A DNA stretch of 42,963 nt from an uncultured Candidatus Saccharibacteria bacterium (GCA_964468315.1 CAYXTA010000005.1:1-42963), one strand, 5' to 3'. Counted from the stretch's first letter, positions 4,169 through 37,193 are shown. Notes: generated by a model from the letters alone, not told the origin. Translations and numbers: made by a program.

Positions 4169-6007
4169 TTAAACAAAGTTCACGCGCAAAGCATTGAGTA
4201 TTATTGCCACATCTAGTGCTTCTTGTATCAAAGCTCCGTATATAGGAGATATGTATCCAAACGCAGCGATAATCATAAGTAAGATACTTATACCTATACC
4301 AAAGAAGATTCCTTGTTTAGCTATTTTCAATGTTTTCTTTGCAATAGTATAAGCTTCACCTACACGCTCCAAATTATCCACCATAATAACAATATCACCG
4401 CTATCCGTTGTACTACTACCATGCCCACCTAAAGCAATGCCTACGTCTGCTGTGGTCAGCGCAGGAGCATCATTCACACCGTCTCCTATCATTGCGACTC
4501 TGCCAAATTGTTTTTTGTGATCGAGAACTTCATGAACTTTATTTTCAGGTAATGCTTCTGCATGCACATCATCGATACCTAATTCTTTTGCTATAACTTC
4601 TGCTACAGATTTTTTGTCACCAGTTAGCATTACTATATTTTGTACACCTTCTTTTCTTAAATTTGAAAAAAGATTTTTTATTTCTGGTCTCACGATATCT
4701 GCAAAAACAACTATTCCAAGTATAGAATCTTTGTTACCACAATAAACTGTTATATTACCTTTTTCTTTAAACAAAATATGCTTCGCTAAAACATCTTCTG
4801 ATATCTTTATTCCTTTTTCTTCCAAGAATTTTAATTTACCAAAAAAGAAAGTCTCACCATTTATATCGCCCACTACTCCTTCTCCGAAATTTTCTTTGAA
4901 ATTTGTAGGTATAGTGAGATCTATTTTATTTTTCAAAGCATAAGATTGCAAAGAACGAGCAAGCACATGCAAAGACATTTGATCGAGTGATGCAGATATT
5001 TTTATTATTTCATTTTTATCTTTATTTTCGAAAGTTATAACATCGACTATTTCTGGTTGGCCTAAAGTCAGTGTTCCTGTTTTATCGAAAATAAAAGAAT
5101 GTGTTTCAGCAAGGACTTCCAATGCTCCACCATTTTTCACAATAATTCCTCTTTTTGCACTACGGCTAATACCTGAGATCATTGCTATTGGTGTCGCTAA
5201 AATAAGTGGACAAGGTGTAGCGACGACAAGCACAGCGAGTAAACGCACTGAATCTTTCGCTAAAAACCAAGCACCTAAAGCAAGTACAAAAGTCACCAAT
5301 GTAAACCAAACACTATATTTGTCAGCCAAGCGTACTACTGGAGCGCGATTCTCTTCTGCTTTTTTTATCAAAGCAATTATTTGTTCGTATTTACTTTCTG
5401 CTGGTGACCGGATGACTTTCACTTCCAAGATATCACTTTTATTTATACTTCCAGAAAAAACATTAGAACCAATTTCTTTTTCAGAAGGTAGGCTTTCTCC
5501 AGTGAGAGCGGATTCATCTACTTGAGATTTACCTAAAATCACGATGCCGTCTGCAGCTATTATCTCACCTGTTTTTATTAAAATAATATCTCCGACTTTT
5601 ACTTCATGAACATCAACTTTTATTAAATTTCCATCTTTTTTTATATGAGCAAAAGTCGGGGCGTTGGAAATAAGGGAAGAGAGTTCTCTTCTAGCTCTTT
5701 TTAAAGCGTATGCTTCGAGAGCTTCTCCACCAGAGAGCATAAGCAATACTATGTTTCCTGCTAAATATTGCCCCATAGCAAAAGACGCGATGATGGCAAT
5801 TATTGCGATGATATCAATACCAAAATGACCTCTGAAAATATCTTTCAAGATTTTCCAAACAAGAGGAATTATTCCTATGATGATAGTCGTCATCCATATA
5901 TAATTTTCGAAATTTGTTTTTGTAAATAAATAAAAAAACAAACCACTTATCAAACCAACAAAAGCAAAAGAAGGTAACAAATATTCAGATATTTTTTTAT
6001 TTTTCAT
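4169..6007 (-). CDS. Heavy-metal P1B-type ATPase (P1B-5-like)
   Basis: TGES, TPCPL, DKTGTLT, GDGVND and C-terminal QEALD motifs. Confidence 0.92.
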   Translation of the reverse strand: MKNKKISEYLLPSFAFVGLISGLFFYLFTKTNFENYIWMTTIIIGIIPLVWKILKDIFRGHFGIDIIAIIAIIASFAMGQYLAGNIVLLMLSGGEALEAYALKRARRELSSLISNAPTFAHIKKDGNLIKVDVHEVKVGDIILIKTGEIIAADGIVILGKSQVDESALTGESLPSEKEIGSNVFSGSINKSDILEVKVIRSPAESKYEQIIALIKKAEENRAPVVRLADKYSVWFTLVTFVLALGAWFLAKDSVRLLAVLVVATPCPLILATPIAMISGISRSAKRGIIVKNGGALEVLAETHSFIFDKTGTLTLGQPEIVDVITFENKDKNEIIKISASLDQMSLHVLARSLQSYALKNKIDLTIPTNFKENFGEGVVGDINGETFFFGKLKFLEEKGIKISEDVLAKHILFKEKGNITVYCGNKDSILGIVVFADIVRPEIKNLFSNLRKEGVQNIVMLTGDKKSVAEVIAKELGIDDVHAEALPENKVHEVLDHKKQFGRVAMIGDGVNDAPALTTADVGIALGGHGSSTTDSGDIVIMVDNLERVGEAYTIAKKTLKIAKQGIFFGIGISILLMIIAAFGYISPIYGALIQEALDVAIILNALRVNFV

Positions 6008-10118: not shown

Positions 10119-10355
10119 ATGGAAAATGAAGACGAAGAAGTAATAACGAAAGACGCTCATGGCAATATTCTCGCAAATGGCGACAGTGTAATCGTGATAA
10201 AAGATTTGAAAGTGAAAGGCACTTCATCTACCCTCAAACAAGGCACAAAAATAAAAAACATTCGCCTCACTGGTGATGAAGAATTGATAGAATGCAGTGC
10301 CGATGGCATGAAAGGCCTCGTCCTCCGTACTGAATTTTTGAAGAAGAGTAATTAA
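10119..10355 (+). CDS. PhnA/YjdM C-terminal-domain protein
   Basis: DAHGNILANGDSVIVIKDLKVKG...KQGTKIKNIRL; no N-terminal zinc ribbon. Confidence 0.85.
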   Translation: MENEDEEVITKDAHGNILANGDSVIVIKDLKVKGTSSTLKQGTKIKNIRLTGDEELIECSADGMKGLVLRTEFLKKSN

Positions 10356-10366
10356 TTATTTATCTA

Positions 10367-10408
10367 AAACAATATCCTTACAAACTCCAGTATGTAAGGA
10401 TATTGTTT
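10367..10408. repeat. 16-bp perfect inverted repeat; copy 1 of a 31-bp direct repeat (10374-10404)
   Basis: AAACAATATCCTTACA-aactccagta-TGTAAGGATATTGTTT. Confidence 0.9.
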
Positions 10409-10706: not shown

Positions 10707-10725
10707 ACTTATATTATATTACGAC

Positions 10726-10756
10726 ATCCTGACAAACTCCAGTATGTAAGTATGTT
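10726..10756. repeat. Copy 2 of the 31-bp direct repeat bracketing the ArsR-like gene
   Basis: ATCCTGACAAACTCCAGTATGTAAGTATGTT vs ATCCTTACAAACTCCAGTATGTAAGGATATT: 28/31 identical, 19-nt exact core. Confidence 0.9.
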
Positions 10757-10758
10757 AA

Positions 10759-11022
10759 TTAAAGGAAAACTTCCAGCGCGCCTTCCCCGCCGTCTTGGAT
10801 CTTTGACTGGTTGTAATGCACTCCGCGAGCATTCAAATAATTCCGTACAAAGCTTGGTAATACGGGACCATTCTCACTATTCTTGCCTTTACCAGTGATT
10901 ATACGCACATGTTTATATTTCATTTCCTTAAACAACGCATTCAAAATATCCTCCGCCTCATGCATCGTGTGCCCATGTAGATCAATCTCCACCTCCGCCT
11001 TTTGTTCGTATTTGTTTGGCAT
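10759..11022 (-). CDS. Stand-alone Smr/MutS2 domain protein
   Basis: IDLHG, IITGKGKNS, GGEGALEV. Confidence 0.9.
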   Translation of the reverse strand: MPNKYEQKAEVEIDLHGHTMHEAEDILNALFKEMKYKHVRIITGKGKNSENGPVLPSFVRNYLNARGVHYNQSKIQDGGEGALEVFL

Positions 11023-11023
11023 T

Positions 11024-11803
11024 TTAATTAATTAATTTTATTTTTTCTATTTTTGGATAGAGTGGTTTGTTATTAAAAGTAACTTTGTAAGAAGAGTGCC
11101 TATGTATTCCTTCTAGTGAGTTAATATACGCAAAGTACTTTAAAGTGAATTTACTTTCACTTTTTGAATATAACTCGAAGCAAACTTTCCACTCGTTATC
11201 AGCTTTATTTTCATATTTAAAAATTCTGATAATTTCCTTTTGTCCTTTTGCTTGAAACATTGTAATGCCACCTCCTTTTACATTAGTACGTGCGACTTTT
11301 CCTTTATTAAAACCAAAGTCAGTTTTCTTAATACCTTTTGCTGCTTTTTTAGCTCCTTTATCAACATTATTTAAAATTTCACTTTCTTTTCCTTTATGCC
11401 ATCTAACTTCTAGAGCAGCTGAGACTTTTTGTCGTGCAGATAAAAATTCATTCCAAAGATCAGAATTATCTACTGGTCTACCGTCTCTATTTTTCCATTT
11501 ATCTTTTTTCCAATAATTTGCCCTTTGTTGATTATCATAAACATACTGAGAATCTGTTATAATAAGAATATGATTTATTCTAATACGCTCGACTTCTTTA
11601 CGAGCAAATTTAAAAGCTTCAATACAAGCTTTTAGTTCCATTCTATTGTTTGTTGTTTCTCCGTATGCACCACTACACACTTCATAACTTTCAATATCAA
11701 AAGAATCAGGATATTCAGCAAAAACAGAATAGCCGCCTTCGTGGCCTGGGTTTCGATAAGCAGAACCATCAACATATAATTTTAAAGCATGTGGTTCATT
11801 CAT
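11024..11803 (-). CDS. Ribonuclease HI family protein with a C-terminal extension
   Basis: YVDGS, TNNRMEL, ITDSQYV, N.DLW, WHKG, N..VDK; about 100 extra residues at the C-terminus. Confidence 0.85.
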   Translation of the reverse strand: MNEPHALKLYVDGSAYRNPGHEGGYSVFAEYPDSFDIESYEVCSGAYGETTNNRMELKACIEAFKFARKEVERIRINHILIITDSQYVYDNQQRANYWKKDKWKNRDGRPVDNSDLWNEFLSARQKVSAALEVRWHKGKESEILNNVDKGAKKAAKGIKKTDFGFNKGKVARTNVKGGGITMFQAKGQKEIIRIFKYENKADNEWKVCFELYSKSESKFTLKYFAYINSLEGIHRHSSYKVTFNNKPLYPKIEKIKLIN

Positions 11804-11814
11804 AATTTGGTAAT

Positions 11815-12588
11815 CTATTTTTCCGCTCTTTTTTGAGCATTTTTAAATCTATCAAGACTCATTAGTTCATTTTTTAAACGATGGTTTTCTATTTCAAGTT
11901 CTTTTAAACGAGGAATGAAGTCATCTGTAAATTTTATTACCCCAAGATTTTGATTCACTCCATAAAATAAATCCATTAGACCCATAGCGATATTACCGAT
12001 CTGCCAAAGGTCTGTTTTCACAAGATACTCATCTTCAATATCAAAAAATGGAGTAACAAATTTCCAATTTTCATCATCAAGTCTAAAGTTATTGTGTGCA
12101 TAAATTATATTAGAGTGAGCAGTAGATTTATTTATTTCACTTTTCATATTTTTTATGGCATCTGACCCTTTTTTAAAATTATCTTCCAACCACTTATATC
12201 TTTTATTTGTAAGTTCTTGTGAAGAATTGATAATTCCATTTTCGTCAACACCAGCAAAACCACTTTGGTTTGGATTAGAAATTGCATATGCGGCACAGGA
12301 TCCCGCCTCAAGTTCTTGACGTAAATCCATCATTGCTTGAATGTGATGCAATCTAAGAGTAGAAAAAATTGCAAGAGTATTGTGCTTTTTTATCTGTGCC
12401 ATGAACATTGCAAAAATAAAACACTCAGGATCTATAGATTTAATAAATTCTCCAAGTAAATTATTAAATTCAACTGCATTTTTAAAATAAGATCCGTAGC
12501 GTTCTTCGCCAAATAAAATCATTTGTTTTTCACTTTCTAGAATATCTTCGACTGTTTCTTGTTTAAATTCCATTATTTTATTCTTCAT
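11815..12588 (-). CDS. Hypothetical protein, HEPN-like (DUF5677-like)
   Basis: All-helical character with LRQELE and KSTAHSN motifs; family assignment is inference. Confidence 0.5.
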   Translation of the reverse strand: MKNKIMEFKQETVEDILESEKQMILFGEERYGSYFKNAVEFNNLLGEFIKSIDPECFIFAMFMAQIKKHNTLAIFSTLRLHHIQAMMDLRQELEAGSCAAYAISNPNQSGFAGVDENGIINSSQELTNKRYKWLEDNFKKGSDAIKNMKSEINKSTAHSNIIYAHNNFRLDDENWKFVTPFFDIEDEYLVKTDLWQIGNIAMGLMDLFYGVNQNLGVIKFTDDFIPRLKELEIENHRLKNELMSLDRFKNAQKRAEK

Positions 12589-14608
12589 CTATTAATTTAA
12601 TGGTTTCTTGCACTATACCCTGCACACTATCCCCTTCTTCCGGAATTATAGGTTGATGGTTTTTGTTTGTACTTTTTGGTAACAAAATTCTTCGTCCGTC
12701 TTTTTTATCATAAAATTTAATCGTAACATTTTCACCACCAAGCAAAGCTACTACTCGATCTCCTGTTTCCCCTTTTTCAGCATAACGACATAAAACTAAA
12801 TCTCCATCATTAATACCTGCAAGATTCATAGAATCACCACTCGCTCGTACTATAAAGTATTGAACACCTGCTCTGATCTTGCTTTTCTCAACTGGTATCA
12901 TTTCTTCAATATTACTTTCTCCTAAAAGTGGCTCTCCGCAAGGAGCAGAACCAACCAAAGGGATACTAACCATTTCAACTGTATAAGGAGAAATAATTTT
13001 TTCTTTCTTAATTATTTCTTTAATAGGACTTATATTTCCTATTTTATCTTTAAAATACTTTCTTAAATTTTCATCACAGATATAAATATATGTCCCTTTT
13101 ATTCCACGAGTAAGCAAAGTTTTATAAATATTTATTACATATCTTTCAAGCTCATTTGGGTCTGTTATACCATTACGTCCATTAGTATCAAAATATTTTT
13201 CTTTATCTACTTTAAGTTTTTTATTTTCAATATCATATGAAAATTCTGGACCAATAATTACTCCAACATAATTCAAGTCATAACCTTGAACAGTATGAAT
13301 ACAGCCAACTTCATTTATTGCATTTGGAGAATTAACCCAATCCTGAGCTGTTGAATTCCAAATCAATTTTAAACCATTTATTTCAATATCATGTTTTTGT
13401 GTAGATCTACTTCCTGGTTTTGTATGCCAAGGCCAAGCATAACCAGCTACAACACGAGCAAGTTTATGTTTTTTATCTTTTTCTTTTATATCAGAAACCA
13501 TTTTATCTGCATTATCATAGATTTTAAAATCGTAATTTCCAAAATTATTTTGTTTTGGTGTTTTTAAGTCAAAAATATCTTCAATAAATTTTATGTACTC
13601 TCCTCCTGCTTCCACACGCATTTGTGAACTTAATTCGTATTTTTTAGTAGTTAACTTTCTAAAATCTTCTGGTCTCACATCTGCTGGTTTTATACTTTGA
13701 TTTTCATCATAAAAAAATATTTGGTGTTTTGAAGATTTCATAATCCAATCAAGCTGATTTCCGCTATTATCTAAACCTAATTTTTTATTTACTTGATCAA
13801 AAGAACCATAACCCATAATTCCCTTTCTTCTTTGTAATCTATGAGATTCGTCCACGATCAGTAAGTCGTATTGTTCTTTTACAACATCATTTGGTCCAAT
13901 AACCATGCTTGACTTTAAACCTTTTATTTTTGAAAAAACTTTACCAATAGTTCGACGAAGTGAAGACATAGGCACAACAAGTCCTATTTTCATATTCTTT
14001 GTTTCATCTTGTTCTTTTAAATACTTAAAAAGATAAGTCGCTAAAATCGTTTTACCTGTTCCTGGTTTCCCATTCACAACAAAAGTATTAAATTCATTTT
14101 TCTTTATATCTTTAAAAATCTGCTTAGCAATAAAATATTGATCTTCTGTAAGAGATTTATAAGGTGAATATTTAAATAAGTCACTATTTTTAAGATCTGC
14201 AAGAGTATTTTTAGCTAAACCCATTTCTCTTAAATTATCCCATGCAACTTCAAATTTTGTTTTATATTTAACTTTATCGTAGTAATTATGATTTTTTAAA
14301 CCACCAGTTAAATTTTGTAGTACATACTGACCATCAGCCTGAATATGCTGAATTAACCAAGATTCAATATCAAAAGCGGCAGAAATATTAAATTCTTCAT
14401 CTGTAATAATATGAATATCTTTCAATTTTCTTCTTTCTGGATTTTCAAAATGTTGTTTACTTCTATAATATGCATTTACAGTTTGACCTATATAAATTTC
14501 TTTTTTATCTTCAATAATATATACAACAGGCCAATTGTGACCAAATTTATATTCTTTTATTTGACTAAAATCTTCTTTGTTAAAAGGGAAAGTTTTTATT
14601 TCAGACAT
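12578..14608 (-). CDS. GIY-YIG nuclease + DUF2075 (Schlafen group 3-like SF1 helicase) + LexA-type S24 peptidase fusion
   Basis: VY..YIGQT..R..H; GKPGTGKT; IVDESHRL; QMR; HTVQGYDL; LLTRG; C-terminal VGSAPCGEP, GDSM, VTIK. Confidence 0.88.
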   Translation of the reverse strand: MSEIKTFPFNKEDFSQIKEYKFGHNWPVVYIIEDKKEIYIGQTVNAYYRSKQHFENPERRKLKDIHIITDEEFNISAAFDIESWLIQHIQADGQYVLQNLTGGLKNHNYYDKVKYKTKFEVAWDNLREMGLAKNTLADLKNSDLFKYSPYKSLTEDQYFIAKQIFKDIKKNEFNTFVVNGKPGTGKTILATYLFKYLKEQDETKNMKIGLVVPMSSLRRTIGKVFSKIKGLKSSMVIGPNDVVKEQYDLLIVDESHRLQRRKGIMGYGSFDQVNKKLGLDNSGNQLDWIMKSSKHQIFFYDENQSIKPADVRPEDFRKLTTKKYELSSQMRVEAGGEYIKFIEDIFDLKTPKQNNFGNYDFKIYDNADKMVSDIKEKDKKHKLARVVAGYAWPWHTKPGSRSTQKHDIEINGLKLIWNSTAQDWVNSPNAINEVGCIHTVQGYDLNYVGVIIGPEFSYDIENKKLKVDKEKYFDTNGRNGITDPNELERYVINIYKTLLTRGIKGTYIYICDENLRKYFKDKIGNISPIKEIIKKEKIISPYTVEMVSIPLVGSAPCGEPLLGESNIEEMIPVEKSKIRAGVQYFIVRASGDSMNLAGINDGDLVLCRYAEKGETGDRVVALLGGENVTIKFYDKKDGRRILLPKSTNKNHQPIIPEEGDSVQGIVQETIKLIDEE

Positions 14609-14610
14609 AA

Positions 14611-14958
14611 TTATAATTCTGTATATTTAGTATGTTTTCCTTTAGCTTTTTTTATAGGATATTTTTTACCATTTTTTTGCATTTTTAACATAAAAGCTTT
14701 TTCAATATCAACATCTAAATCATGAGAAAGTAATAAAACCCAGTAAAAAACATCCGCTAATTCTTCAGCAATATCTTTTTTATTTTCTTTTATATATTTT
14801 TTAATTTCTTCAGGAGATTTCCATTGAAAATGTTCAAGTACTTCACTAGCTTCGAGAGATAAAGAAATAGCTAAGTCTTTAGGATTGTGAAATTGCCTCC
14901 AATCACGAGCATCTCGGAAATCATTAATTACTTTAGTTAGAGCCTTAATTTGATTCAT
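14611..14958 (-). CDS. MazG-like nucleotide pyrophosphohydrolase (DCTPP1/RS21-C6 type)
   Basis: RDWRQFHNPKDLAISLSLEASEVLEHFQW, EELADV. Confidence 0.9.
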   Translation of the reverse strand: MNQIKALTKVINDFRDARDWRQFHNPKDLAISLSLEASEVLEHFQWKSPEEIKKYIKENKKDIAEELADVFYWVLLLSHDLDVDIEKAFMLKMQKNGKKYPIKKAKGKHTKYTEL

Positions 14959-15037
14959 AACCCCTAAATTCTACCTTATTTTAAAGCATTTTTCAATATT
15001 AAAATAACCTCAAATACTATTTTCACAAATAATTGAC

Positions 15038-15072: not shown

Positions 15073-15124
15073 ACAAAGTGCCGAAAGGCTCCGAGAAAGC
15101 CCCCGTAAGGGGGCTTTCGATTTT
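15073..15124 (+). ncRNA. Candidate ~50-nt small RNA convergent on the MazF-like gene
   Basis: GCC-GAAA-GGC hairpin, then GAAAGCCCCC-GTAA-GGGGGCTTTC followed by gatttt; no ORF. Ends are estimated. Confidence 0.45.
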
Positions 15125-15517
15125 CTAAAGGAATTTCTTTAATTTCTCTTTTATTTCCTTTAACTGCTCGTCTGGTAATTCATATAACTTTCTTTTTAAT
15201 CTTTTAACACTGAGTAATTTTAATTGAGCCAAAATAGCTGAAACTTTATTATTATCTAAATCAGTAAAATTATAATAAAAGTCAAAATCTTTTTGTTTCG
15301 TAGATAATGGAACAATCCAAAACATATGATTGTTAAATTTCTTAATAATTAATATTGGGCGAGAAAAATTTTCACCACTACCATTTTGTTCATAACCAAT
15401 ATTTTTTCCTAAACTGCTCATCCACACTTCACCTTCTTTAGGAAAACGATCAGGTTTATTCTCTTCGAAATCAATTTTCTTTTTTAATTCATTCCAATTA
15501 TTAAAATCTGTTTCCAT
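15125..15517 (-). CDS. PemK/MazF-like toxin, no adjacent antitoxin gene
   Basis: GEVWM..LG.NIGYEQ, RPILIIKK, IVPLST. Confidence 0.8.
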   Translation of the reverse strand: METDFNNWNELKKKIDFEENKPDRFPKEGEVWMSSLGKNIGYEQNGSGENFSRPILIIKKFNNHMFWIVPLSTKQKDFDFYYNFTDLDNNKVSAILAQLKLLSVKRLKRKLYELPDEQLKEIKEKLKKFL

Positions 15518-15551: not shown

Positions 15552-16076
15552 TTATATCTTCCTACTATCATACGCCCAATGGAGGAGGGCTTGGCGTTGG
15601 CGAGGACGGCAAAAAATGTCCCCTACTCGGCAGTTTTTCTTTATTTGTGCAGTGTGTCGCAAGATCATGCGCCAGCGTTTTATTTGTCTTTTGTCTTCAT
15701 CTGGGATTCTACGCCCCATGTAATATCGGCAATACCATTGGAACCATCCTCTAGGATCTTCGGAATAAATCCATCCATTTTTCTTCCAGACAGAAAGTGG
15801 TTGGCTCGCATCCACACCGAAATAATTTAATTTCTTATCATGTTTGTCTTTCGCAAATTTTGCTTTTGTAAACCAATCTTTCGGAAATTCTTTTTTGCAA
15901 TCGCGCATGTAGCGTCCGCCGAAGACGCCCAAGGAAAGCATTTCCTTGGGCGTCAGGTCTGGTTTGAATTCTATATCAAAATTTTTACCCACAGGTTCAG
16001 TCAAAAAGTATGTATACTTTTTCTGCATCTTATCATTCACTATTACTTTTTTCTTTTTGAAAGGCATTTTATTCAC
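15552..16076 (-). CDS. Conserved hypothetical protein (DPRGWFQWYCRYY.GRR family)
   Basis: LTPKEML.LGVFGG.Y, W...GW....DPRGWFQWYCRYYMGRR, RQALLHWAYD. Confidence 0.75.
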   Translation of the reverse strand: MNKMPFKKKKVIVNDKMQKKYTYFLTEPVGKNFDIEFKPDLTPKEMLSLGVFGGRYMRDCKKEFPKDWFTKAKFAKDKHDKKLNYFGVDASQPLSVWKKNGWIYSEDPRGWFQWYCRYYMGRRIPDEDKRQIKRWRMILRHTAQIKKNCRVGDIFCRPRQRQALLHWAYDSRKI

Positions 16077-16327
16077 CCCGTTAGATAATTTTTAAGTCGA
16101 CTTTTAATATATCGTTTACCCCATGCTGTTTTTAAATATTTTTCTCTATGTGTAGCATCTTGTTGATTCAAACAAGCTTCGTAATATACTAATTCCATTG
16201 GTAAACGATTTTTAGTGGAAAAAACTTTTCCACTATTATGTTCTTTAAGTCGACTTTTTAAGTCTTTAGTATAACCAGTATAGAACAATTTATCTTTTTT
16301 ACTTTTTAGTATGTAAGTATAATACAT
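16073..16327 (-). CDS. GIY-YIG nuclease (UPF0213/YazA-like)
   Basis: YTYIL...YTGYT.DL..RLKEHNSG, A..REKYLK. Confidence 0.9.
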   Translation of the reverse strand: MYYTYILKSKKDKLFYTGYTKDLKSRLKEHNSGKVFSTKNRLPMELVYYEACLNQQDATHREKYLKTAWGKRYIKSRLKNYLTG

Positions 16328-16329
16328 AA

Positions 16330-16590
16330 CTATCTAATGGGGTAAACGCCCTCAGCTTTTAATTTTTTTATTTTTTCATCTCTTCCTCTGTTGTATTCAC
16401 CTATAACTCCATCACTACGAATAACTCGATGACAAGGAATATCAGGATTATAATTCTTTTTCAAAACAGAACCAACAGCACGAGAAGCATTTATGTTTCC
16501 GCTTTTACGTGCAACTTCTTTATAAGTCAGCACTTTGCCTTTTGGAATTTTACGCACAACATCTAATACTTTTTCTGTAAAAGTTTTCAT
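16330..16590 (-). CDS. O6-alkylguanine DNA alkyltransferase, C-terminal domain only (MGMT family)
   Basis: IPKGKVLTY, RAVG, IPCHRV with active-site Cys. Confidence 0.9.
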   Translation of the reverse strand: MKTFTEKVLDVVRKIPKGKVLTYKEVARKSGNINASRAVGSVLKKNYNPDIPCHRVIRSDGVIGEYNRGRDEKIKKLKAEGVYPIR

Positions 16591-30996: not shown

Positions 30997-33900
30997 TTAT
31001 AAATAGTTTAATATCTTTTTACTAATGGGTTTTGTACAATTAAGCAAATTAATTTTGCTACGAGTATATTGAGCTACTATTCCTGTTGTTTTTTTACCAT
31101 TAAATGGAGAAATGATATCTTTAAAATATTTTTGCTGAAAACGTTTTACTGCTTCAAAATCTTTTTTTTCATAAATACCATTCACAGCCAGCTTTTCTCC
31201 CTGAGAATCATTTAAAAAAGTTTCAAGTTTTTTAACATCATTAATATTATTTATCTTACCTAAAACGATACTTTTTTTTGTAGAAAAAATATTTGTACAA
31301 AGTGAAACATCTTGAATTTTTTCTACTGCAATTTCTTTTGCTTGAACAGGATAATAAGGACGCGACTTTCCATAAGAAGAACGATGAGAAGCTCCTGAAA
31401 CAGTTATTGGGGTTGTAATTGTAAAAGTTGTCACGCTTAAAAGATTACTTGTATTAGTAGCAGTATCAGTAACAATGATAGTACAATCACTATAAATTCC
31501 ATCAACGAGTGTATTAAAACTTATTGTATTATTTCCCACACTTGCTGAGGTTGTAACTGAAGAACAAGAACCTCCGTATGTTATAGTTCCTGCTTCATCT
31601 GTAGAAAAAACATAATCCGGTGTATGGTCCGTCGTTAGATTTGTAACAGGTGTAATTTCAGAAAGTGTTGGACTAGTAGTATCAACAACAAAAGTAGTAA
31701 CACTAAGTGGAGTACTTGCATTAAGTGCAGTATCAGTAACAGTAACAGTACAATTATTGTACGTTCCATCCGACAATGTATTAAACGTAATTGTATTACT
31801 ACCTACTGAAGCTGATGTTGTAGCTGAAGAACAAGAACCTCCATATGAAATATTTCCTGCTTCGTCTGTAGTAAATGTATAGTTTGGAGTACTATCATTT
31901 GTTGGAGTTGAGACTGGAGTAACTTCAGAAATAATTGGTGCAGTAATATCTGGTGCATAGGTTACAGTATTGTCCGTAGATGTCGCAGCAGTATTGTTGT
32001 TATTAGAAGGATCAGTTACTTTGTTTGCATCAAGAGAGGCAATAATAGTACCGCCTGACGTTGCAGTAACTGGGACAGTCCATGTAATATTATCTGAAGT
32101 TGTAGGAGTTCCCACTGTGGCAGTGCCTGTACCAGAAATTGTAATATCACCAGCTATAAATGTTGTTGGATCAATTGCTTCGCTAAATACTACAGTGAAA
32201 TTAATTGGGTTTGAGCCTGTTGGATCAGACTGTCCTACAGCTTGGTTGATAGTAGCAGTAGGCGCAGTTGTATCAGGTAAAGACACATCATAAATAGTTA
32301 TTCTATTATTATTTGTCACAAATAATTTAGTATTTGTAACATCATATGCCAAAGGTCCTGGTCCATTCATCCCCGCTTGTGTAACTGCTCCCGTACTTCC
32401 CGTAAAAGTCGTCTGTCCTAAGACATTTATTGCATTTTCTCCATCAGTGATGGAAGCGACGTCGTAGACGGTGACGCGGTTACTTGTTGATTGGGAAACA
32501 AACAATCTATTATTAGTAGCATCATAGACAATGTCTTGAGGAATATTCATTCCTCCTTGTGTAGTAGCTCCCGTACTTCCCGTAAAAGTCGTCTGTCCTA
32601 AGACATTTATTGCATTTTCTCCATCAGTGATGGAAGCGACGTCGTAGACGGTGACGCGGTTGGCGGAAGTTGCTTGGGCGACGAAAAGTCGGCTGTTGGT
32701 AGAATCATATGCAAGACCTTTTGGATTATTCATCCCCGCTTGTGTAACTGCTCCAGTACTTCCTGTAAAAGTTGTCTGTCCCAAGACATTGATTGCATTC
32801 TCTCCATCAGTGATGGAGGCGACGTCGTAGACGGTGACGCGGTTACTATTGGAAACAAAAAGTCGACTATTGGTGGAATCATAAGCAAGTGCTTGTGGGC
32901 TACTCATCCCCGATTGTGTTACGGCTGCACCACTTGCAGTAAAAGTATTCTGTCCCAAGACATTGATTGCATTTTCTCCATCAGTGATGGAGGCGACGTC
33001 GTAGACAGTGACACGGTTAGCTGCTGTTTGAGCAACAAAGAGTCTATTGTTTACAGAATCATATGCAAGACCGAAAATAGAACTTACGCCTGCTTGAGTT
33101 ACTGCTCCAGTATTTGAATTAAAATCTGTTTGACCTAAAACATTGTCAGGTGTCTTGTCTACAAGCTGATTGCTTGAATTAAGATTATAAACAAGAACGC
33201 GATTATTAGTAGAATCATTCACAAATAAACGGTGATTCGTAGAATCAATAATATTATTACCAACACCTGCACCACTCAGGCCGAGTAAACTCGGTGCATT
33301 ATTTGTCGCTGATTTTGTGTAATTTACTGTCGAGCCTGATAGATCGGAATATTGACCAATCAAATCTACCGCATTTTCTCCATCAGTGATGGAGGCGACG
33401 TCGTAGACGGTGACGCGGTGCGCTCCTGTTTGTGAAACAAATAAAAGACCATTTATATTGTCGTAAAGTAAACCAGTTGGTGTACTCATACCTCCCTGTG
33501 TCACCGCTGCAGTACTTCCCGTAAAAGTCGTCTGTCCTAAAACATTGATTGCATTCTCTCCATCAGTTATGGAAGCGACGTCGTAGACGGTGACACGATG
33601 ATTTCCTGACTGAGCAACAAAGAGTCTGTCATTAGTTGAATCATATGCAAGACCAGTAGGACTTTTCACTCCTGCCTGCGTTGTGGCTGCTGTATTTACC
33701 GTAAACGTCGTCTGTCCTAAAACATTGATTGCATTCTCTCCATCAGTTATGGAAGCGACGTCGTAGACGGTGACGCGGTTACCATTTGCAACAAATAACC
33801 TACTGTTAGCATTATCATATGCCATACCTTGTGGACCACCAGTAGCCATTCCTCCCTGCGTAACCGCTGCACTAGATCCCGTAAAAGTCGTCTGTCCTAA

Positions 33901-34614
33901 AACATTGATTGCATTTTCTCCATCAGTAATAGAGGCGACGTCGTAGACGGTGATGCGGTTTGAAGAAGATTGCGAAACAAAGAGTCTATTGTTTGTGGAG
34001 TCAAAAGCAAGACCGAAAATATTACCCATGCCTGCTTGAGTAACTGCTGAAGTAGATGTTGTAAACGTCGTCTGTCCCAAGACATTGATTGCATTCTCTC
34101 CATCAGTGATGGAGGCGACGTCGTAGACGGTGACGCGTCGAGCATTTGTATTTGCAACAAAAAGTCTATTGCCATTAGGATCATAAACAAGACTGGAAGG
34201 ACTAGACATACCTGCTTGAGTTATTGCTCCTGTAGTTGTAGAAAAAGTTGTTTGCCCTAAAACATTATCGGCTACTTTATCAACCAACTGATCACTTGAG
34301 TTTAAATTGTAAACAAGAACACGATTATTCGCAGAATCAGATACAAACAATCTGTGATGCACATGATCAATATCAGTACTAAAATTACCAGAGCCACTGA
34401 ATCCAAGTAAGTTTGGAGAATTATTTGAGCCTGACTTTGTATAAATTACGGTTGAACCTGCGGTGTCAGTATATTGTCCAATTAAGTCTGAAGCATTTTC
34501 TCCATCAGAAATTGCAGCAGACGTAGTTTGAGTAAAAGTAAAAAAAGCAACTACTAGAAAAGAATAGATAAGAAATGCCGATTTTTTATTTTTTTTATAA
34601 AAAAGTTTTTTCAT
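30997..34614 (-). CDS. Large surface protein: NHL repeats, Ig-like domains, C-terminal peptidoglycan-binding-like domain
   Basis: About 60-aa NHL-type repeats (GLAYD..N.RLFV....NRVTVYD), DTTAP Ig modules, AVKRFQ..Y...TG.V...TR tail. Likely start MKKLF at 34614. Confidence 0.85.
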   Translation of the reverse strand: MKKLFYKKNKKSAFLIYSFLVVAFFTFTQTTSAAISDGENASDLIGQYTDTAGSTVIYTKSGSNNSPNLLGFSGSGNFSTDIDHVHHRLFVSDSANNRVLVYNLNSSDQLVDKVADNVLGQTTFSTTTGAITQAGMSSPSSLVYDPNGNRLFVANTNARRVTVYDVASITDGENAINVLGQTTFTTSTSAVTQAGMGNIFGLAFDSTNNRLFVSQSSSNRITVYDVASITDGENAINVLGQTTFTGSSAAVTQGGMATGGPQGMAYDNANSRLFVANGNRVTVYDVASITDGENAINVLGQTTFTVNTAATTQAGVKSPTGLAYDSTNDRLFVAQSGNHRVTVYDVASITDGENAINVLGQTTFTGSTAAVTQGGMSTPTGLLYDNINGLLFVSQTGAHRVTVYDVASITDGENAVDLIGQYSDLSGSTVNYTKSATNNAPSLLGLSGAGVGNNIIDSTNHRLFVNDSTNNRVLVYNLNSSNQLVDKTPDNVLGQTDFNSNTGAVTQAGVSSIFGLAYDSVNNRLFVAQTAANRVTVYDVASITDGENAINVLGQNTFTASGAAVTQSGMSSPQALAYDSTNSRLFVSNSNRVTVYDVASITDGENAINVLGQTTFTGSTGAVTQAGMNNPKGLAYDSTNSRLFVAQATSANRVTVYDVASITDGENAINVLGQTTFTGSTGATTQGGMNIPQDIVYDATNNRLFVSQSTSNRVTVYDVASITDGENAINVLGQTTFTGSTGAVTQAGMNGPGPLAYDVTNTKLFVTNNNRITIYDVSLPDTTAPTATINQAVGQSDPTGSNPINFTVVFSEAIDPTTFIAGDITISGTGTATVGTPTTSDNITWTVPVTATSGGTIIASLDANKVTDPSNNNNTAATSTDNTVTYAPDITAPIISEVTPVSTPTNDSTPNYTFTTDEAGNISYGGSCSSATTSASVGSNTITFNTLSDGTYNNCTVTVTDTALNASTPLSVTTFVVDTTSPTLSEITPVTNLTTDHTPDYVFSTDEAGTITYGGSCSSVTTSASVGNNTISFNTLVDGIYSDCTIIVTDTATNTSNLLSVTTFTITTPITVSGASHRSSYGKSRPYYPVQAKEIAVEKIQDVSLCTNIFSTKKSIVLGKINNINDVKKLETFLNDSQGEKLAVNGIYEKKDFEAVKRFQQKYFKDIISPFNGKKTTGIVAQYTRSKINLLNCTKPISKKILNYL
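32387..34140. repeat. Intragenic coding repeats of about 180 bp (9 core copies)
   Basis: Core CCATCAGT(G/T/A)AT(G/A)GA(A/G)GCGACGTCGTAGAC(G/A)GTGA at 32441, 32621, 32804, 32978, 33380, 33560, 33740, 33920, 34100. Confidence 0.92.
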
Positions 34615-34663
34615 ATTAACGACGAATATTAATACATTATAACACAATAAACAGTACAAAAAA

Positions 34664-34689
34664 AACACCCTTACAATTGTAAGGGTGTT
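34664..34689 (-). terminator. Perfect 26-bp palindrome, likely a terminator
   Basis: AACACCCTTACAATTGTAAGGGTGTT, followed by a T-run on the minus strand. Confidence 0.75.
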
Positions 34690-35617: not shown

Positions 35618-35691
35618 TGCCAGATCGTCTAATGGTAGGACACCTCCCTCTGGAGGAGGTTATCTTGGTTCGAGTCCAAGTCTGGCAGCCA
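35618..35691 (+). tRNA. tRNA-Gln (anticodon CTG), CCA encoded
   Basis: Acceptor TGCCAGA/TCTGGCA, D-arm GTC..GAC, anticodon stem CCTCC/GGAGG with loop CTCTGGA, T-arm CTTGG-TTCGAGT-CCAAG. Confidence 0.96.
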
Positions 35692-37191
35692 GCTTGTACA
35701 GTCCGCTAATTCTAGGACTAGATTAAATGGAGAAGCTATTGCAAACTCTAGCTTTTTTCCGTTTACAGTCGGGTTCTGAAGTAGAGAGTTCAAAAATGCT
35801 CTTTTTCCTGCAACATCAGAACTATTTTCAAAAATTGTTTTTGCTCTGCGTGCTACAGAAACAATCATAGCAACGGTAGTTTGATAATCGTAGTCTGCTT
35901 TTCTATGCTCGGACATTTCAATTTCTAGTAGCTGTATTTTATCAGTGTACTCTTGGTGCTTTTTGTCATAAGTATCCTTAGTAATACTCGTATCTAAAAA
36001 TGCTTCAAGTAATCTATTCTTTTTTGCTTCTAAGTTATCGTGGTCTGTGCGTATGCGATTTATCTGTGCCTTATGAAAAACTATTTCAGCTTCAGTATTC
36101 TTGCGTAGGTCATTTACAAGCTCGTTCTGTGCTTCCTCTGTAATGCTCTCAAATCGCTCTAAAACCTCGTACACGGGCTTCAAGAGGTCGTTCTCGTTGA
36201 TGTATATCCTCTTACAAATACGCTTTGCGTTAGTGCAAGAATAATAGATAAAAATAAGTCCACTTTTCTTAGTCTTGGTTTCAGCTGTCATTGCACAACC
36301 GCAGTTTTGACACTTAAGCAAACCCTTGAATATAAAATCTTTAGAATGTGCCTTATAGGGCAAATTGGTGCGTTTAAGGCGTACCTGTTTGCATTTATCA
36401 AACAATTCTTTGCTTATAAGACGAGGGTATTTATGTGCATACGCACCGTATTTTTCTGATACAGCAATACCACAAAAGAAGCTATCCTTTAAGATATTTT
36501 CAATACTACTTCTTCCAAGCTCGTTCCCATTTAGAGTGCGTAGCCCAAGCTCTGTGATTTTTATTCGTATCGTTTCTAGTGAGTGTTCGTCTGTTGCGTA
36601 AAGCTCAAACATTTTTGCAACTAAATGTCCTCGTTCAGGGTCAATTATTATATCTTTGCGTAATCTTCTTTCTGTATCTAAAGAAACATTAAGATAACCC
36701 AAGCGTACTCCGCCAGTCCATTCGCCATTTCTTCGTTTGTTTTCAAATGCTCGTCTTACATTGTCGCCAATAGCATCGGAATAGTATTTTGCCAAACCCA
36801 AGCTCATACCAAATTGGAACTTCTCAACAGCAGACATTTGAGTATTTATAATCTGTCCTTCTGATACAAAGTGAAGTTCAATCTTATCAGCAATCGCAAG
36901 TTCGTAGAGCCGAGCAACTCTTTTATCAAAAACACTTCTTGAAAGTCGGTCTACTTTATCAAAGCAAACAGATATTTTTTCTTTTTTAATTATATCCTCA
37001 ACATACTCAAGCAATTTATCAAACTCATCTCGTTTATCTTTATACGCACTTTCATCAAAACTGAAAGATTTTATTATCTCAAAAGATTTCTTTTTACAGT
37101 AACTATTGATACGCTCAATTTGAGCAGGCAACGAGTTTCCAGCTTCTTTTTGTTCTTCAGTTGATACTCGTGATACATTTATTGCTTTCAT
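35629..37191 (-). CDS. Large serine recombinase (resolvase + recombinase + zinc ribbon + coiled coil)
   Basis: SRVSTEEQ catalytic motif, DKVDRLSR, LG.LN, CQNCG..YYSC; the C-terminus overlaps the tRNA antisense. Confidence 0.92.
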   Translation of the reverse strand: MKAINVSRVSTEEQKEAGNSLPAQIERINSYCKKKSFEIIKSFSFDESAYKDKRDEFDKLLEYVEDIIKKEKISVCFDKVDRLSRSVFDKRVARLYELAIADKIELHFVSEGQIINTQMSAVEKFQFGMSLGLAKYYSDAIGDNVRRAFENKRRNGEWTGGVRLGYLNVSLDTERRLRKDIIIDPERGHLVAKMFELYATDEHSLETIRIKITELGLRTLNGNELGRSSIENILKDSFFCGIAVSEKYGAYAHKYPRLISKELFDKCKQVRLKRTNLPYKAHSKDFIFKGLLKCQNCGCAMTAETKTKKSGLIFIYYSCTNAKRICKRIYINENDLLKPVYEVLERFESITEEAQNELVNDLRKNTEAEIVFHKAQINRIRTDHDNLEAKKNRLLEAFLDTSITKDTYDKKHQEYTDKIQLLEIEMSEHRKADYDYQTTVAMIVSVARRAKTIFENSSDVAGKRAFLNSLLQNPTVNGKKLEFAIASPFNLVLELADCTSWLPDLDSNQDNLLQREVSYH

Positions 37192-37193
37192 AA

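What the first reader, a model, noticed from the sequence alone, without database searches (positions are those of the whole stretch)
10759..14958. Five-gene nucleic-acid-degrading operon: candidate anti-phage system
The MazG/DCTPP1-like, GIY-YIG-helicase-S24, HEPN-like, RNase H and Smr genes are co-oriented with gaps of 2, -11, 11 and 1 nt. Each product is predicted to act on nucleotides, DNA, RNA or hybrids. MazG-like enzymes and HEPN RNases are established defence components. I do not recognise this combination as a named system. The Smr gene looks more GC-rich and may be a separate addition.
Basis: partly seen in the sequence, partly recalled or inferred. Interest (0 to 1): 0.75.

Follow-up and report, generated by a model that had tools for sequence, protein, structure and literature searches.

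The report
Defence island around MazG–helicase gene pair
The five genes are real, but they are not one five-part machine: a widely conserved pair (a nucleotide-cleaning enzyme plus a DNA-cutting helicase carrying a self-cleaving LexA-type switch) is followed by two independently mobile defence-type genes and an ordinary housekeeping gene.

Summary
All five ORFs, their strand and their spacing are confirmed. Four of the five domain calls hold: MazG/DCTPP1-like, GIY-YIG/Schlafen-type SF1B helicase/S24, RNase H and Smr. "HEPN-like" found no support.

The five genes occur together only in this strain and a sister species. Across 25 genomes, only the MazG-like gene and the helicase stay adjacent (22 of 24 informative loci). 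That pairing recurs in Bacillus megaplasmids, a Clostridiales genome, and Halomonas and Nocardiopsis plasmids.

In a close relative, P3 and RNase H are replaced by a methyl-directed restriction enzyme and an AriA/PtuA-like ATPase. Elsewhere that slot holds Abi_alpha/PDC-S47, TIR/PDC-S35, PIN, NYN or DUF3800 genes. P3 homologues lie inside type I R-M operons. Full-length RNase H homologues lie beside restriction, OLD, GmrSD and SIR2 genes. Smr travels with ArsR as a flanking gene.

Best reading: a compact defence island in a candidate-phyla-radiation (CPR, Patescibacteria) bacterium. Its core is an undescribed two-gene relative of the Nhi/AbiO nuclease-helicases. In this lineage the helicase carries an intact LexA/UmuD-type autoprotease (Cys557-Gly558, Ser593, Lys631). 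Function is inferred, not shown.

Interest 0.6; a new variant of a known kind.

The parts
14968..14996 (-). Sigma-70-like promoter candidate (TTGAAA-17-TAGAAT) just upstream of the MazG start
   Evidence: 10 of 12 matches, the best in the region. The total number of such sites is not above the shuffled expectation, so this is suggestive only.
14611..14958 (-). MazG-like / DCTPP1-type all-alpha (d)NTP pyrophosphohydrolase, 115 aa. It is the conserved partner of the helicase.
   Evidence: PF12643 1.9e-18. PDB 4qgp 1e-20 and DCTPP1 3e-17. The acidic motifs E36-x2-E39 and E66-x2-D69 are conserved in all 23 loci and in Bacillus. The gene lies directly upstream of the helicase in 22 of 24 informative genome loci.
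12578..14608 (-). 676-aa three-domain protein: GIY-YIG nuclease, Schlafen-group-3/DUF2075 SF1B helicase and S24 (LexA/UmuD-type) autoprotease
   Evidence: Pfam. AF2 model (pLDDT 78) matches RecD2, Dda, RecD, Upf1, SLFN11 and LexA C-domains. More than 120 relatives at 69-90% identity in CPR bacteria.
14309..14533 (-). GIY-YIG nuclease domain (residues ~26-100): Y30, Y39-I-G41, R49, E82, N99
   Evidence: Pfam E 2e-4, just under the cut-off. PADLOC PDC-S14 1e-6. The motifs are invariant in alignments. NCBI names a Bacillus paralogue 'GIY-YIG nuclease family protein'.
13040..14155 (-). SF1B helicase core (residues ~152-523): Walker A G180-KPGTGKT, Walker B D253-E-S-H
   Evidence: PF09848 1.5e-71. 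PADLOC Nhi 1.2e-18 and AbiO 9e-17, over this part only. Fold matches.
12596..12976 (-). S24 autoprotease domain (residues ~545-671): cleavage site Cys557-Gly558 (codons 12935-12940), nucleophile Ser593 (GDSM), base Lys631
   Evidence: PF00717 2.7e-19. LexA/UmuD in the PDB at 1e-10. TM about 0.8 to LexA C-domains, including RecA-bound LexA 8trg. C-G and the Ser are invariant and the Lys is in a nearly invariant (>=90%) column of A2; all three are kept in every S24-bearing homologue aligned.
11815..12573 (-). P3: 252-aa all-alpha protein of an uncharacterised family. It is independent defence-island cargo and was not shown to be HEPN.
   Evidence: 370 homologues without any Pfam domain. Found between hsdM and hsdS in L031 and L058, next to serine recombinases in L033 and L059, and before a TIR gene in L061. 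Model pLDDT 91 with no fold match.
11024..11803 (-). RNase HI domain (D12, E56, D84, D148) with a ~100-aa C-terminal domain of unknown family. It is independent defence-associated cargo.
   Evidence: PF00075 1.4e-20. Full-length homologues lie next to R.HinP1I+Vsr, a UvrD helicase, a phage integrase, an OLD ATPase-TOPRIM, and GmrSD_N+SIR2_2. Absent from the same slot in L019.
10759..11022 (-). Stand-alone Smr domain protein, 87 aa. It is a flanking gene and not part of the module.
   Evidence: PF01713 1.6e-13. GC3 of 0.49 is the highest in the window. It stays with ArsR/g174 in L013 and L019, away from or on the other side of the pair.
15125..15517 (-). Orphan MazF/PemK-like toxin gene upstream, separated from MazG by a GC hairpin (15095-15118). 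It is a loose, recurrent neighbour.
   Evidence: PF02452 5.6e-11 and phrog_9567 9e-18. MazF-like genes lie near the pair in L004, L012, L014, L015, L019 and L028-30. Hairpin.

Best explanation
The cluster is a small defence island in a CPR (Paceibacteria/Nomurabacteria-like) genome. It is made of separable modules that are probably co-transcribed here.

The core is a conserved two-gene module. Its first gene is a DCTPP1-type MazG pyrophosphohydrolase. Its second is a nuclease-helicase with the same architecture as the experimentally validated single-gene defences Nhi, AbiO and Nhi-like (nuclease plus DUF2075 SF1B helicase). Here the nuclease is GIY-YIG, and in this lineage a C-terminal LexA/UmuD-type S24 autoprotease is added.

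Proposed mechanism (inferred, not shown):
1. The helicase loads on phage replication intermediates or damaged DNA, and the GIY-YIG domain cuts them.
2. The S24 domain acts as a switch. RecA-ssDNA filaments that form during phage replication or DNA damage stimulate self-cleavage at Cys557-Gly558. This frees the nuclease-helicase from its dimerising tail, or alternatively marks it for turnover.
3. MazG hydrolyses dNTPs, possibly base-modified ones as DCTPP1 does. This starves or sanitises the pool used for phage DNA synthesis.

P3 and the RNase H with its extra C-terminal domain are autonomous defence-type cargo occupying a variable slot 3' of the helicase. Smr is a neighbouring housekeeping gene.
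For: Pair conservation:
- MazG lies directly upstream of the helicase in 22 of 24 informative genome loci.
- The pair sits 147 nt apart in B. thuringiensis pBMB431, with MazG 52% and the helicase 34% identical to the window's.
- MazG lies directly upstream of the helicase in 30 of 38 plasmid records listed for both genes. Four more have an inserted GIY-YIG paralogue between them.
- The pairing is also seen in Halomonas and Nocardiopsis plasmids.

No co-conservation of the other three genes.

Variable slot after the helicase:
- L019 shares g174 (85%), MazF (90%), MazG (98%) and Smr (86%) with the window. In place of P3 and RNase H it carries an mREase_II (6e-61) and an AriA/PtuA-like ATPase.
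- Other loci carry Abi_alpha/PDC-S47, DUF3800, NYN, TIR/PDC-S35, PIN_12, SocA-HTH or zeta toxin there. Dcm+HATPase and Wadjet JetC/D lie upstream in two loci.

Family link: PADLOC Nhi 1e-18 and AbiO 9e-17. Nhi, Nhi-like and AbiO are described as nuclease plus DUF2075 helicase defences.

Catalytic residues are intact in every domain. The S24 fold matches LexA C-domains at TM about 0.8.

Independent contexts of P3 and of the RNase H. MazG and the helicase have the lowest GC3 in the window.
Against: - No experiment exists.
- The S24-fused helicase is unusually conserved for a defence gene. It forms one 50%-identity cluster, at 70-90% identity across many CPR lineages. It is more conserved than its neighbours, which is more typical of a housekeeping gene.
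- Similarity to Nhi/AbiO is limited to the helicase core. The tested Nhi-like protein shares only the Walker A region.
- The pair was not found in IMG/VR contigs by the pattern scan, which detects close relatives only. The Bacillus plasmid records are largely one lineage, so they are not independent observations.
- RecA dependence, the direction of the S24 switch and the MazG substrate are all guesses.
- Prevalence among complete CPR genomes could not be measured.
Confidence: 0.55

Rival explanations
1. The MazG-helicase-S24 pair is a DNA-damage response or repair module of CPR bacteria and not an immune system. RecA-stimulated S24 cleavage releases a GIY-YIG/SF1B enzyme that processes stalled forks or lesions, and MazG removes damaged dNTPs. 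Defence genes merely accumulate beside this conserved anchor.
For: - Very high conservation of the helicase: one 50% cluster, 70-90% identity.
- An intact LexA/UmuD-type switch.
- DCTPP1-type house-cleaning relatives of MazG.
- The pair is present in every close relative seen.
- From general knowledge, not tested here: human SLFN11, which shares the helicase fold, responds to replication stress.
Against: - The S24 tail is absent from most of the family (about 12 of the 150 best representatives) and from the Bacillus, Clostridiales, Halomonas and Nocardiopsis pairs, which still keep MazG.
- The flanks differ from genome to genome.
- The pair lies on megaplasmids beside HNH, zeta and SocA genes.
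- The helicase core was exchanged for a 54%-identical allele in L019 within otherwise 85-98% identical flanks.
- The experimentally characterised relatives with this architecture named in the sources read here (Nhi, Nhi-like, AbiO) are anti-phage.
Confidence: 0.23
2. The conserved pair is a sensor/regulator module, and the gene immediately downstream is its exchangeable effector. That gene is P3 here, and Abi_alpha, TIR, PIN, NYN, DUF3800 or a restriction enzyme elsewhere. This would resemble the swappable effectors of CBASS or Lamassu.
For: A different nuclease or toxin-type gene follows the helicase on the same strand, with gaps of 1-26 nt, in at least 9 genomes.
Against: - The downstream genes match autonomous single-gene candidates or known enzymes: PDC-S47, PDC-S35 and mREase_II.
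- P3 occurs without the pair inside type I R-M operons.
- Some loci have a toxin-antitoxin pair or non-defence genes in that position.
- Tight spacing is the genome's norm.
- The Bacillus pairs have no such downstream gene.
Confidence: 0.12
3. All five genes form one dedicated five-component anti-phage system.
For: - Same strand, gaps of 1-11 nt, and no terminator-like site between the helicase and Smr.
- The same order is kept in a sister species, with the helicase 84% and P3 96% identical.
Against: - The five occur together only in this lineage.
- P3 and RNase H are replaced in L019.
- Smr stays with ArsR elsewhere.
- Each family has its own independent contexts.
Confidence: 0.05

Closest known systems
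Nhi (S. epidermidis), the Nhi-like protein (B. cereus FSL H8-0482) and AbiO (Lactococcus): single-gene nuclease-helicase defences
   Same: N-terminal nuclease followed by a DUF2075/Schlafen-group-3 SF1B helicase. The PADLOC Nhi and AbiO models hit the helicase core (1e-18, 9e-17). The setting is defence-island or plasmid.
   Different: - The nuclease is GIY-YIG, not PD-(D/E)XK.
- A MazG-like partner gene is conserved.
- An S24 autoprotease is fused in CPR bacteria.
- There is no detectable sequence similarity to the tested Nhi-like protein outside Walker A.
- The PADLOC hits do not cover the whole protein.
LexA / UmuD (S24 self-cleaving proteins)
   Same: The Ser-Lys dyad and the (Ala/Cys)-Gly cleavage site sit in a VGSAPCGEPLL context. 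The site is Cys-Gly as in UmuD (from general knowledge). The fold matches LexA C-domains at TM about 0.8.
   Different: There is no winged-helix DNA-binding domain and no polymerase-V context. The cargo released by cleavage would be a 540-aa nuclease-helicase. No description of such a fusion was found in the paper library.
DCTPP1 / RS21-C6 and the archaeal 4qgp pyrophosphatase (all-alpha MazG-like NTP pyrophosphatases)
   Same: Sequence matches of 1e-20 to 3e-17. The four acidic metal ligands and the C-terminal KYP...KY.EL tail are conserved.
   Different: The gene is encoded as the fixed upstream partner of a nuclease-helicase. Its substrate is unknown.
Human SLFN11 / SLFN14 helicase domain
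   Same: Same Pfam family (PF09848) and a fold match at E 1e-9.
   Different: There is no Schlafen AlbA_2 RNase domain. The recently described bacterial Schlafen defences concern that RNase domain, not this helicase.
Defence hotspots and islands, and accessory genes embedded in type I R-M operons
   Same: Known or candidate defence genes vary at one position next to conserved genes. P3 sits between hsdM and hsdS.
   Different: The setting is small CPR genomes, and the anchor is itself a candidate defence pair.

Membership tests
Nhi/AbiO-type nuclease-helicase defence | DUF2075 / SLFN-g3 SF1B helicase core with Walker A and B | tested here: met
   PF09848 1.5e-71. GKPGTGKT and DESH are invariant. 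Fold matches to RecD2, Dda, Upf1 and SLFN11.
Nhi/AbiO-type nuclease-helicase defence | N-terminal PD-(D/E)XK nuclease | tested here: not met
   The N-terminus is GIY-YIG. The architecture is analogous, but the nuclease superfamily differs.
Nhi/AbiO-type nuclease-helicase defence | Full-length match to the family models or to tested proteins | tested here: not met
   PADLOC Nhi and AbiO hits cover residues ~142-475 only. BLASTP against the available 399 residues of the 611-aa tested Nhi-like protein gives E 0.014, around Walker A only.
Nhi/AbiO-type nuclease-helicase defence | Protects against phage when expressed | not testable with these tools
   Needs experiments.
MazG-like / DCTPP1 NTP pyrophosphohydrolase | Family model above the curated cut-off, and the acidic ExxE...ExxD metal ligands | tested here: met
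   PF12643 66.9 bits against a cut-off of 27. E36, E39, E66 and D69 are conserved in all partners. PDB relatives.
S24 (LexA/UmuD) autoprotease | Ser-Lys dyad and an Ala/Cys-Gly cleavage site | tested here: met
   S593 (GDSM), K631 and C557-G558 are kept in all S24-bearing homologues aligned; in A2, S593 and C557-G558 are invariant and K631 is in a nearly invariant column. PF00717 69.4 bits against a cut-off of 23.3.
S24 (LexA/UmuD) autoprotease | RecA-filament-stimulated self-cleavage | not testable with these tools
   Inferred from family knowledge only.
LexA repressor | N-terminal winged-helix DNA-binding domain | tested here: not met
   TIGR00498 matches residues 548-667 only, at 69 bits against a cut-off of 111.
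HEPN RNase (claimed for P3) | HEPN family model hit, Rx4-6H motif, four-helix HEPN fold | tested here: not met
   No significant hit in Pfam, NCBIfam, PADLOC or PHROGs. Only 1 of 36 members gives a weak HEPN_AbiU2 hit, at 0.017. The conserved residues are R74-x-H76 and N148-x4-H153, not Rx4-6H. Foldseek gives no match at E<0.1 in the PDB or BFVD. A very remote relationship cannot be excluded.
RNase HI | Family model and the DEDD catalytic residues | tested here: met
   PF00075 74.4 bits against a cut-off of 25.8. D12, E56, D84 and D148 are present. It scores below the NCBIfam equivalog cut-off (89.9 vs 160) and carries an extra C-terminal domain.
Single five-gene defence system | Co-conservation of the five genes across genomes | tested here: not met
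   The five occur together only in the window strain and a sister species. They are not together in 25 genome loci, 19 RNase H loci or 7 P3 contexts.

The most novel reading that the evidence does not exclude
The MazG-like enzyme plus the GIY-YIG/Schlafen-type helicase fused to an S24 autoprotease is a new immune module gated by RecA filaments. It would be a bacterial counterpart of SLFN11's response to replication stress. Self-cleavage would arm the nuclease-helicase, and the gene directly downstream (P3, Abi_alpha, TIR, PIN, NYN and others) would be its exchangeable effector.
Probability: 0.12. Interest if true: 0.85.

Novelty: new variant of a known kind. Interest (0 to 1): 0.6.

Why it matters
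- It defines a two-gene module conserved across phyla: a MazG-type dNTP pyrophosphatase plus a nuclease/DUF2075 helicase. No paper in the searchable library mentions this pairing, and PADLOC does not model it.
- The CPR form adds a LexA-type self-cleaving switch to an enzyme and not to a repressor. That gives a directly testable way for a cell to couple DNA-damage or phage-replication signals to a nuclease.
- It shows that ultra-small CPR genomes keep a defence hotspot with exchangeable cargo.
- It flags two uncharacterised defence-associated families. One is P3, which has a confident model with no fold match in the PDB or BFVD. The other is an RNase H with a C-terminal domain of unknown family.

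Tried and rejected
- HEPN identity of P3 was tested several ways. Pfam was run on the protein and on 36 family members. A PDB profile search was run. Foldseek was run against the PDB and BFVD with a pLDDT-91 model. Nothing usable came back.
- Membership in the experimentally tested Nhi-like family was rejected.
- CMoRE, a GIY-YIG type IV restriction enzyme (PMC12923530), was looked at and is unrelated in architecture.
- The recent bacterial Schlafen papers concern the RNase domain, not this helicase.
- Literature searches for DUF2075+MazG, MazG+Nhi, and S24/LexA-like defence fusions found nothing relevant.
- The viral-contig scan for the helicase found nothing.
- Searches for att-like direct repeats around the block found only short AT-rich chance matches, plus a palindrome pair around ArsR.
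- GC3 shows MazG and the helicase as the lowest in the window. The contrast is modest, so it is not used as proof of horizontal transfer.
- The third homologue search was left unused, because only the closest 120 hits are listed and they would not have added context.

Full report
**Observation.** The five ORFs exist as described, all on the minus strand.

| Gene | Coordinates | Length |
|---|---|---|
| MazG-like | 14611-14958 | 115 aa |
| Three-domain helicase | 12578-14608 | 676 aa |
| P3 | 11815-12588 | 257 aa |
| RNase H | 11024-11803 | 259 aa |
| Smr | 10759-11022 | 87 aa |

- The gaps are 2, -11, 11 and 1 nt. The -11 overlap is probably an artefact of the longest-ORF rule. Gene callers and the family alignment begin P3 at 12573 (252 aa), which leaves a 4-nt gap.
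- Domain calls are confirmed for four genes:
  - MazG-like PF12643, 1.9e-18.
  - SLFN-g3/DUF2075 helicase 1.5e-71, plus Peptidase_S24 2.7e-19.
  - RNase H 1.4e-20.
  - Smr 1.6e-13.
- GIY-YIG falls just under Pfam's cut-off. Its GIY...YIG...R...E...N motifs are nevertheless conserved in the homologues that share this N-terminus.
- Co-orientation and tight spacing say little here. 29 of the 31 ORFs picked between 0.7 and 20 kb are on the minus strand, and small gaps are usual.
- A promoter-like site lies just before MazG. A strong GC hairpin follows the upstream MazF-like gene. No terminator-like site lies between the helicase and Smr. Co-transcription in this strain is therefore plausible.

**Organism.** Exact and near copies of the helicase are on metagenomic contigs. 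Relatives are named Nomurabacteria, Paceibacteria, Pacebacteria and Roizmanbacteria. The window is therefore a CPR/Patescibacteria chromosome fragment. It also carries ordinary genes: RNase J, a solute-binding protein and MsrA/B.

**Co-conservation test.** I fetched 25 genome loci that encode relatives of the helicase and searched them with all window proteins.
- MazG lies directly upstream, on the same strand, in 22 of the 24 informative loci. The two exceptions are a contig that begins inside the helicase and an Acholeplasmataceae genome.
- The loci with MazG include a Clostridiales genome and several whose helicase has no S24 tail.
- P3 and the RNase H were never next to the pair, except in the same strain (L001/L002) and a sister species (L028-L030).
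- Smr appeared twice, several kb away and linked to ArsR.
- The pairing reaches far beyond CPR bacteria.
  - On B. thuringiensis HD-1 plasmid pBMB431, a "nucleotide pyrophosphohydrolase" 52% identical to the window's MazG sits 147 nt upstream of a "DUF2075 domain-containing protein" 34% identical to the helicase.
  - In 30 of 38 plasmid records listed for both genes, the two are adjacent in that order. Four more have an inserted GIY-YIG paralogue between them. These records are mostly one B. cereus-group lineage.
  - A Halomonas plasmid and a Nocardiopsis plasmid also have a MazG homologue beside their DUF2075 gene. A Hymenobacter plasmid does not.

**The slot after the helicase is variable and full of defence genes.**
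- L019 is a close relative: g174 85%, MazF 90%, MazG 98% and Smr 86% identical. In place of P3 and RNase H it has two other genes:
  - a methyl-directed restriction enzyme (PADLOC mREase_II, 6e-61);
  - an AriA/PtuA-like AAA_21 ATPase.
- The L019 helicase is a mosaic. It is 40-62% identical over residues 1-550 but 92-98% over the S24 domain.

| Locus | Genes next to the pair |
|---|---|
| L004 | Abi_alpha / PDC-S47 |
| L006 | DUF3800 downstream; weak HNH_5 upstream |
| L008 | HTH-SocA/Panacea |
| L009 | NYN |
| L010 | CAP12-type TIR / PDC-S35 |
| L011 | PDC-M36A-like protein, then a zeta toxin |
| L013 | PIN_12 |
| L024 | Dcm plus HATPase_c_3/Hypoth_Ymh, upstream |
| L025 | Wadjet JetC/JetD, upstream |

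Many of the neighbours match autonomous single-gene candidates. That favours a hotspot reading over a dedicated-effector reading.

**P3.**
- The family has 370 detectable members of about 252 aa in CPR bacteria, a Schekmanbacteria genome and a record labelled Pacearchaeota. None has a Pfam domain.
- It lies between hsdM and hsdS in two different type I R-M operons (L031, L058). It lies beside large serine recombinases (L033, L059). It lies in front of a TIR_2 gene (L061).
- An AlphaFold model is confident (pLDDT 91, all-alpha). It has no Foldseek match better than E 0.18 in the PDB or BFVD.
- Profile searches give nothing. The one exception is a weak HEPN_AbiU2 hit in 1 of 36 members.
- The invariant polar residues (H64, R74, H76, Q79, R85, Q86, N148, H153, D178, D181, D201) suggest an enzyme. 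They do not form an Rx4-6H motif.
- "HEPN-like" is therefore unsupported. P3 is best described as an uncharacterised, mobile, defence-associated protein.

**RNase H.**
- The DEDD residues are present.
- A C-terminal domain of about 100 aa, with no family hit, is conserved in full-length homologues down to 30% identity.
- Those homologues lie next to R.HinP1I plus Vsr, a UvrD-type helicase, a phage integrase, an OLD-type AAA_15/TOPRIM protein, and GmrSD_N plus SIR2_2. None has any other window gene nearby.
- This gene too is independent cargo of defence or mobile regions.

**Smr.** Smr has GC 0.44 and GC3 0.49, the highest in the window. The flanking genes g174 and YjdM are next highest. MazG (0.12) and the helicase (0.14) are the lowest. 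With its linkage to ArsR in other genomes, Smr is a neighbour and not a component.

**The core pair.**
- MazG is closest to an archaeal pyrophosphatase (4qgp, 1e-20) and to DCTPP1/RS21-C6 (3e-17). All four acidic ligands are conserved in every partner.
- The helicase model (pLDDT 78) matches the SF1B helicases RecD2, Dda, RecD, Pif1, Upf1 and Dna2, and the helicase part of human SLFN11 and SLFN14. Its tail matches LexA C-domains at TM about 0.8, including LexA bound to a RecA filament.
- The S24 part keeps the cleavage site (VGSAP-C557-G558-EPLL), the nucleophile Ser593 and the base Lys631 in all S24-bearing homologues aligned. The site is Cys-Gly, as in UmuD by general knowledge. The domain is most likely catalytically competent.
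- The S24 fusion is a minority form. The whole highly conserved CPR clade collapses into one 50%-identity cluster. Only about a dozen of the best 150 representatives extend into S24.
- PADLOC gives only partial hits: Nhi 1e-18, AbiO 9e-17, and PDC-S14 on the N-terminus.
- Nhi, the Nhi-like protein and AbiO are described as nuclease plus DUF2075 helicase defences with PD-(D/E)XK nucleases. The tested Nhi-like protein shares only the Walker A region with the window protein.
- No paper in the library contains both DUF2075 and MazG. Searches for S24-type fusions in defence found nothing.

**Interpretation.**
- Shown: the pair is the conserved unit. The other three genes are separable. The surroundings are rich in known or candidate defence genes. 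All catalytic motifs are intact.
- Inferred: the pair is an Nhi/AbiO-like defence. The S24 tail senses RecA-ssDNA filaments and arms or retires the nuclease-helicase by self-cleavage. MazG depletes or sanitises dNTPs.
- Main rival: a DNA-damage repair module that serves as the anchor of a hotspot. The unusually high conservation of the helicase fits this reading. I could not measure prevalence in complete CPR genomes, and that would separate the two.
- A more novel reading treats the downstream gene as an exchangeable effector of the pair. It is not excluded. It is disfavoured by the autonomy of those genes.

**Verdict.** The five-gene-system interpretation is not. What is there is a CPR defence island built around an undescribed MazG plus GIY-YIG/DUF2075 helicase(-S24) pair, a new variant of the nuclease-helicase kind of defence. 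It also carries two uncharacterised cargo families worth testing.

Noticed in passing
window 15125-15517 (-): An orphan MazF/PemK-like toxin gene has no antitoxin ORF beside it. MazF-like genes (32-90% identical) recur within 0.2-4 kb of the MazG-helicase pair in L004, L012, L014, L015, L019 and L028-30.
   Followed up: partly
window 10369-10404 and 10721-10756: A 36-nt imperfect palindrome is present twice (86% identical), flanking the ArsR-like gene. The second copy lies directly after the Smr stop codon. It could be a terminator or an ArsR operator.
   Followed up: no
window 35618-38366: tRNA-Gln (35618-35691, +) abuts a large serine recombinase (35629-37191, -), which is followed by a D12 N6-adenine DNA methyltransferase (37194-38366, -). 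This may be the edge of an integrated element.
   Followed up: no
window 30997-34668 (-): A 1223-aa NHL-repeat protein occupies the only GC-rich stretch of the window (0.42-0.43 against 0.33 overall).
   Followed up: no
window 10119-10355, 10759-11022, 15552-16076: YjdM, Smr and the conserved 174-aa protein that flank the low-GC block have the three highest GC3 values in the window (0.40-0.49, median 0.24).
   Followed up: partly
L019 8016-12211: In a close relative the helicase is a mosaic: a divergent nuclease-helicase core with a near-identical S24 tail. It is followed by a methyl-directed restriction enzyme and an AriA/PtuA-like ATPase in place of P3 and RNase H.
   Followed up: yes
L031 5105-9503; L058 3445-7064: P3 homologues sit between hsdM and hsdS of two unrelated type I restriction-modification operons. 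In L031 they lie beside a DUF2321 gene and other genes with no known family.
   Followed up: partly
L053 2036-6662 (Bacillus sp. PGP15 plasmid p1): An extra 686-aa GIY-YIG paralogue lies between MazG and the DUF2075 gene. It shares the first ~148 residues with the helicase. A remnant of a second MazG copy lies at 4665-4829, which suggests a tandem duplication.
   Followed up: partly
window 16073-16590 (-): A stand-alone 84-aa GIY-YIG protein and an 86-aa MGMT-type DNA_binding_1 protein lie side by side just upstream of the block. Their order is reversed in the sister species (L028).
   Followed up: no
L006 3932-4630; L021 5517-6203: A ~230-aa protein with a weak HNH_5 match (67% identical between the two loci) lies next to the pair in two genomes, upstream in one and downstream in the other. 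Bacillus plasmids also have an HNH endonuclease upstream of the pair, with no detectable similarity to it.
   Followed up: partly
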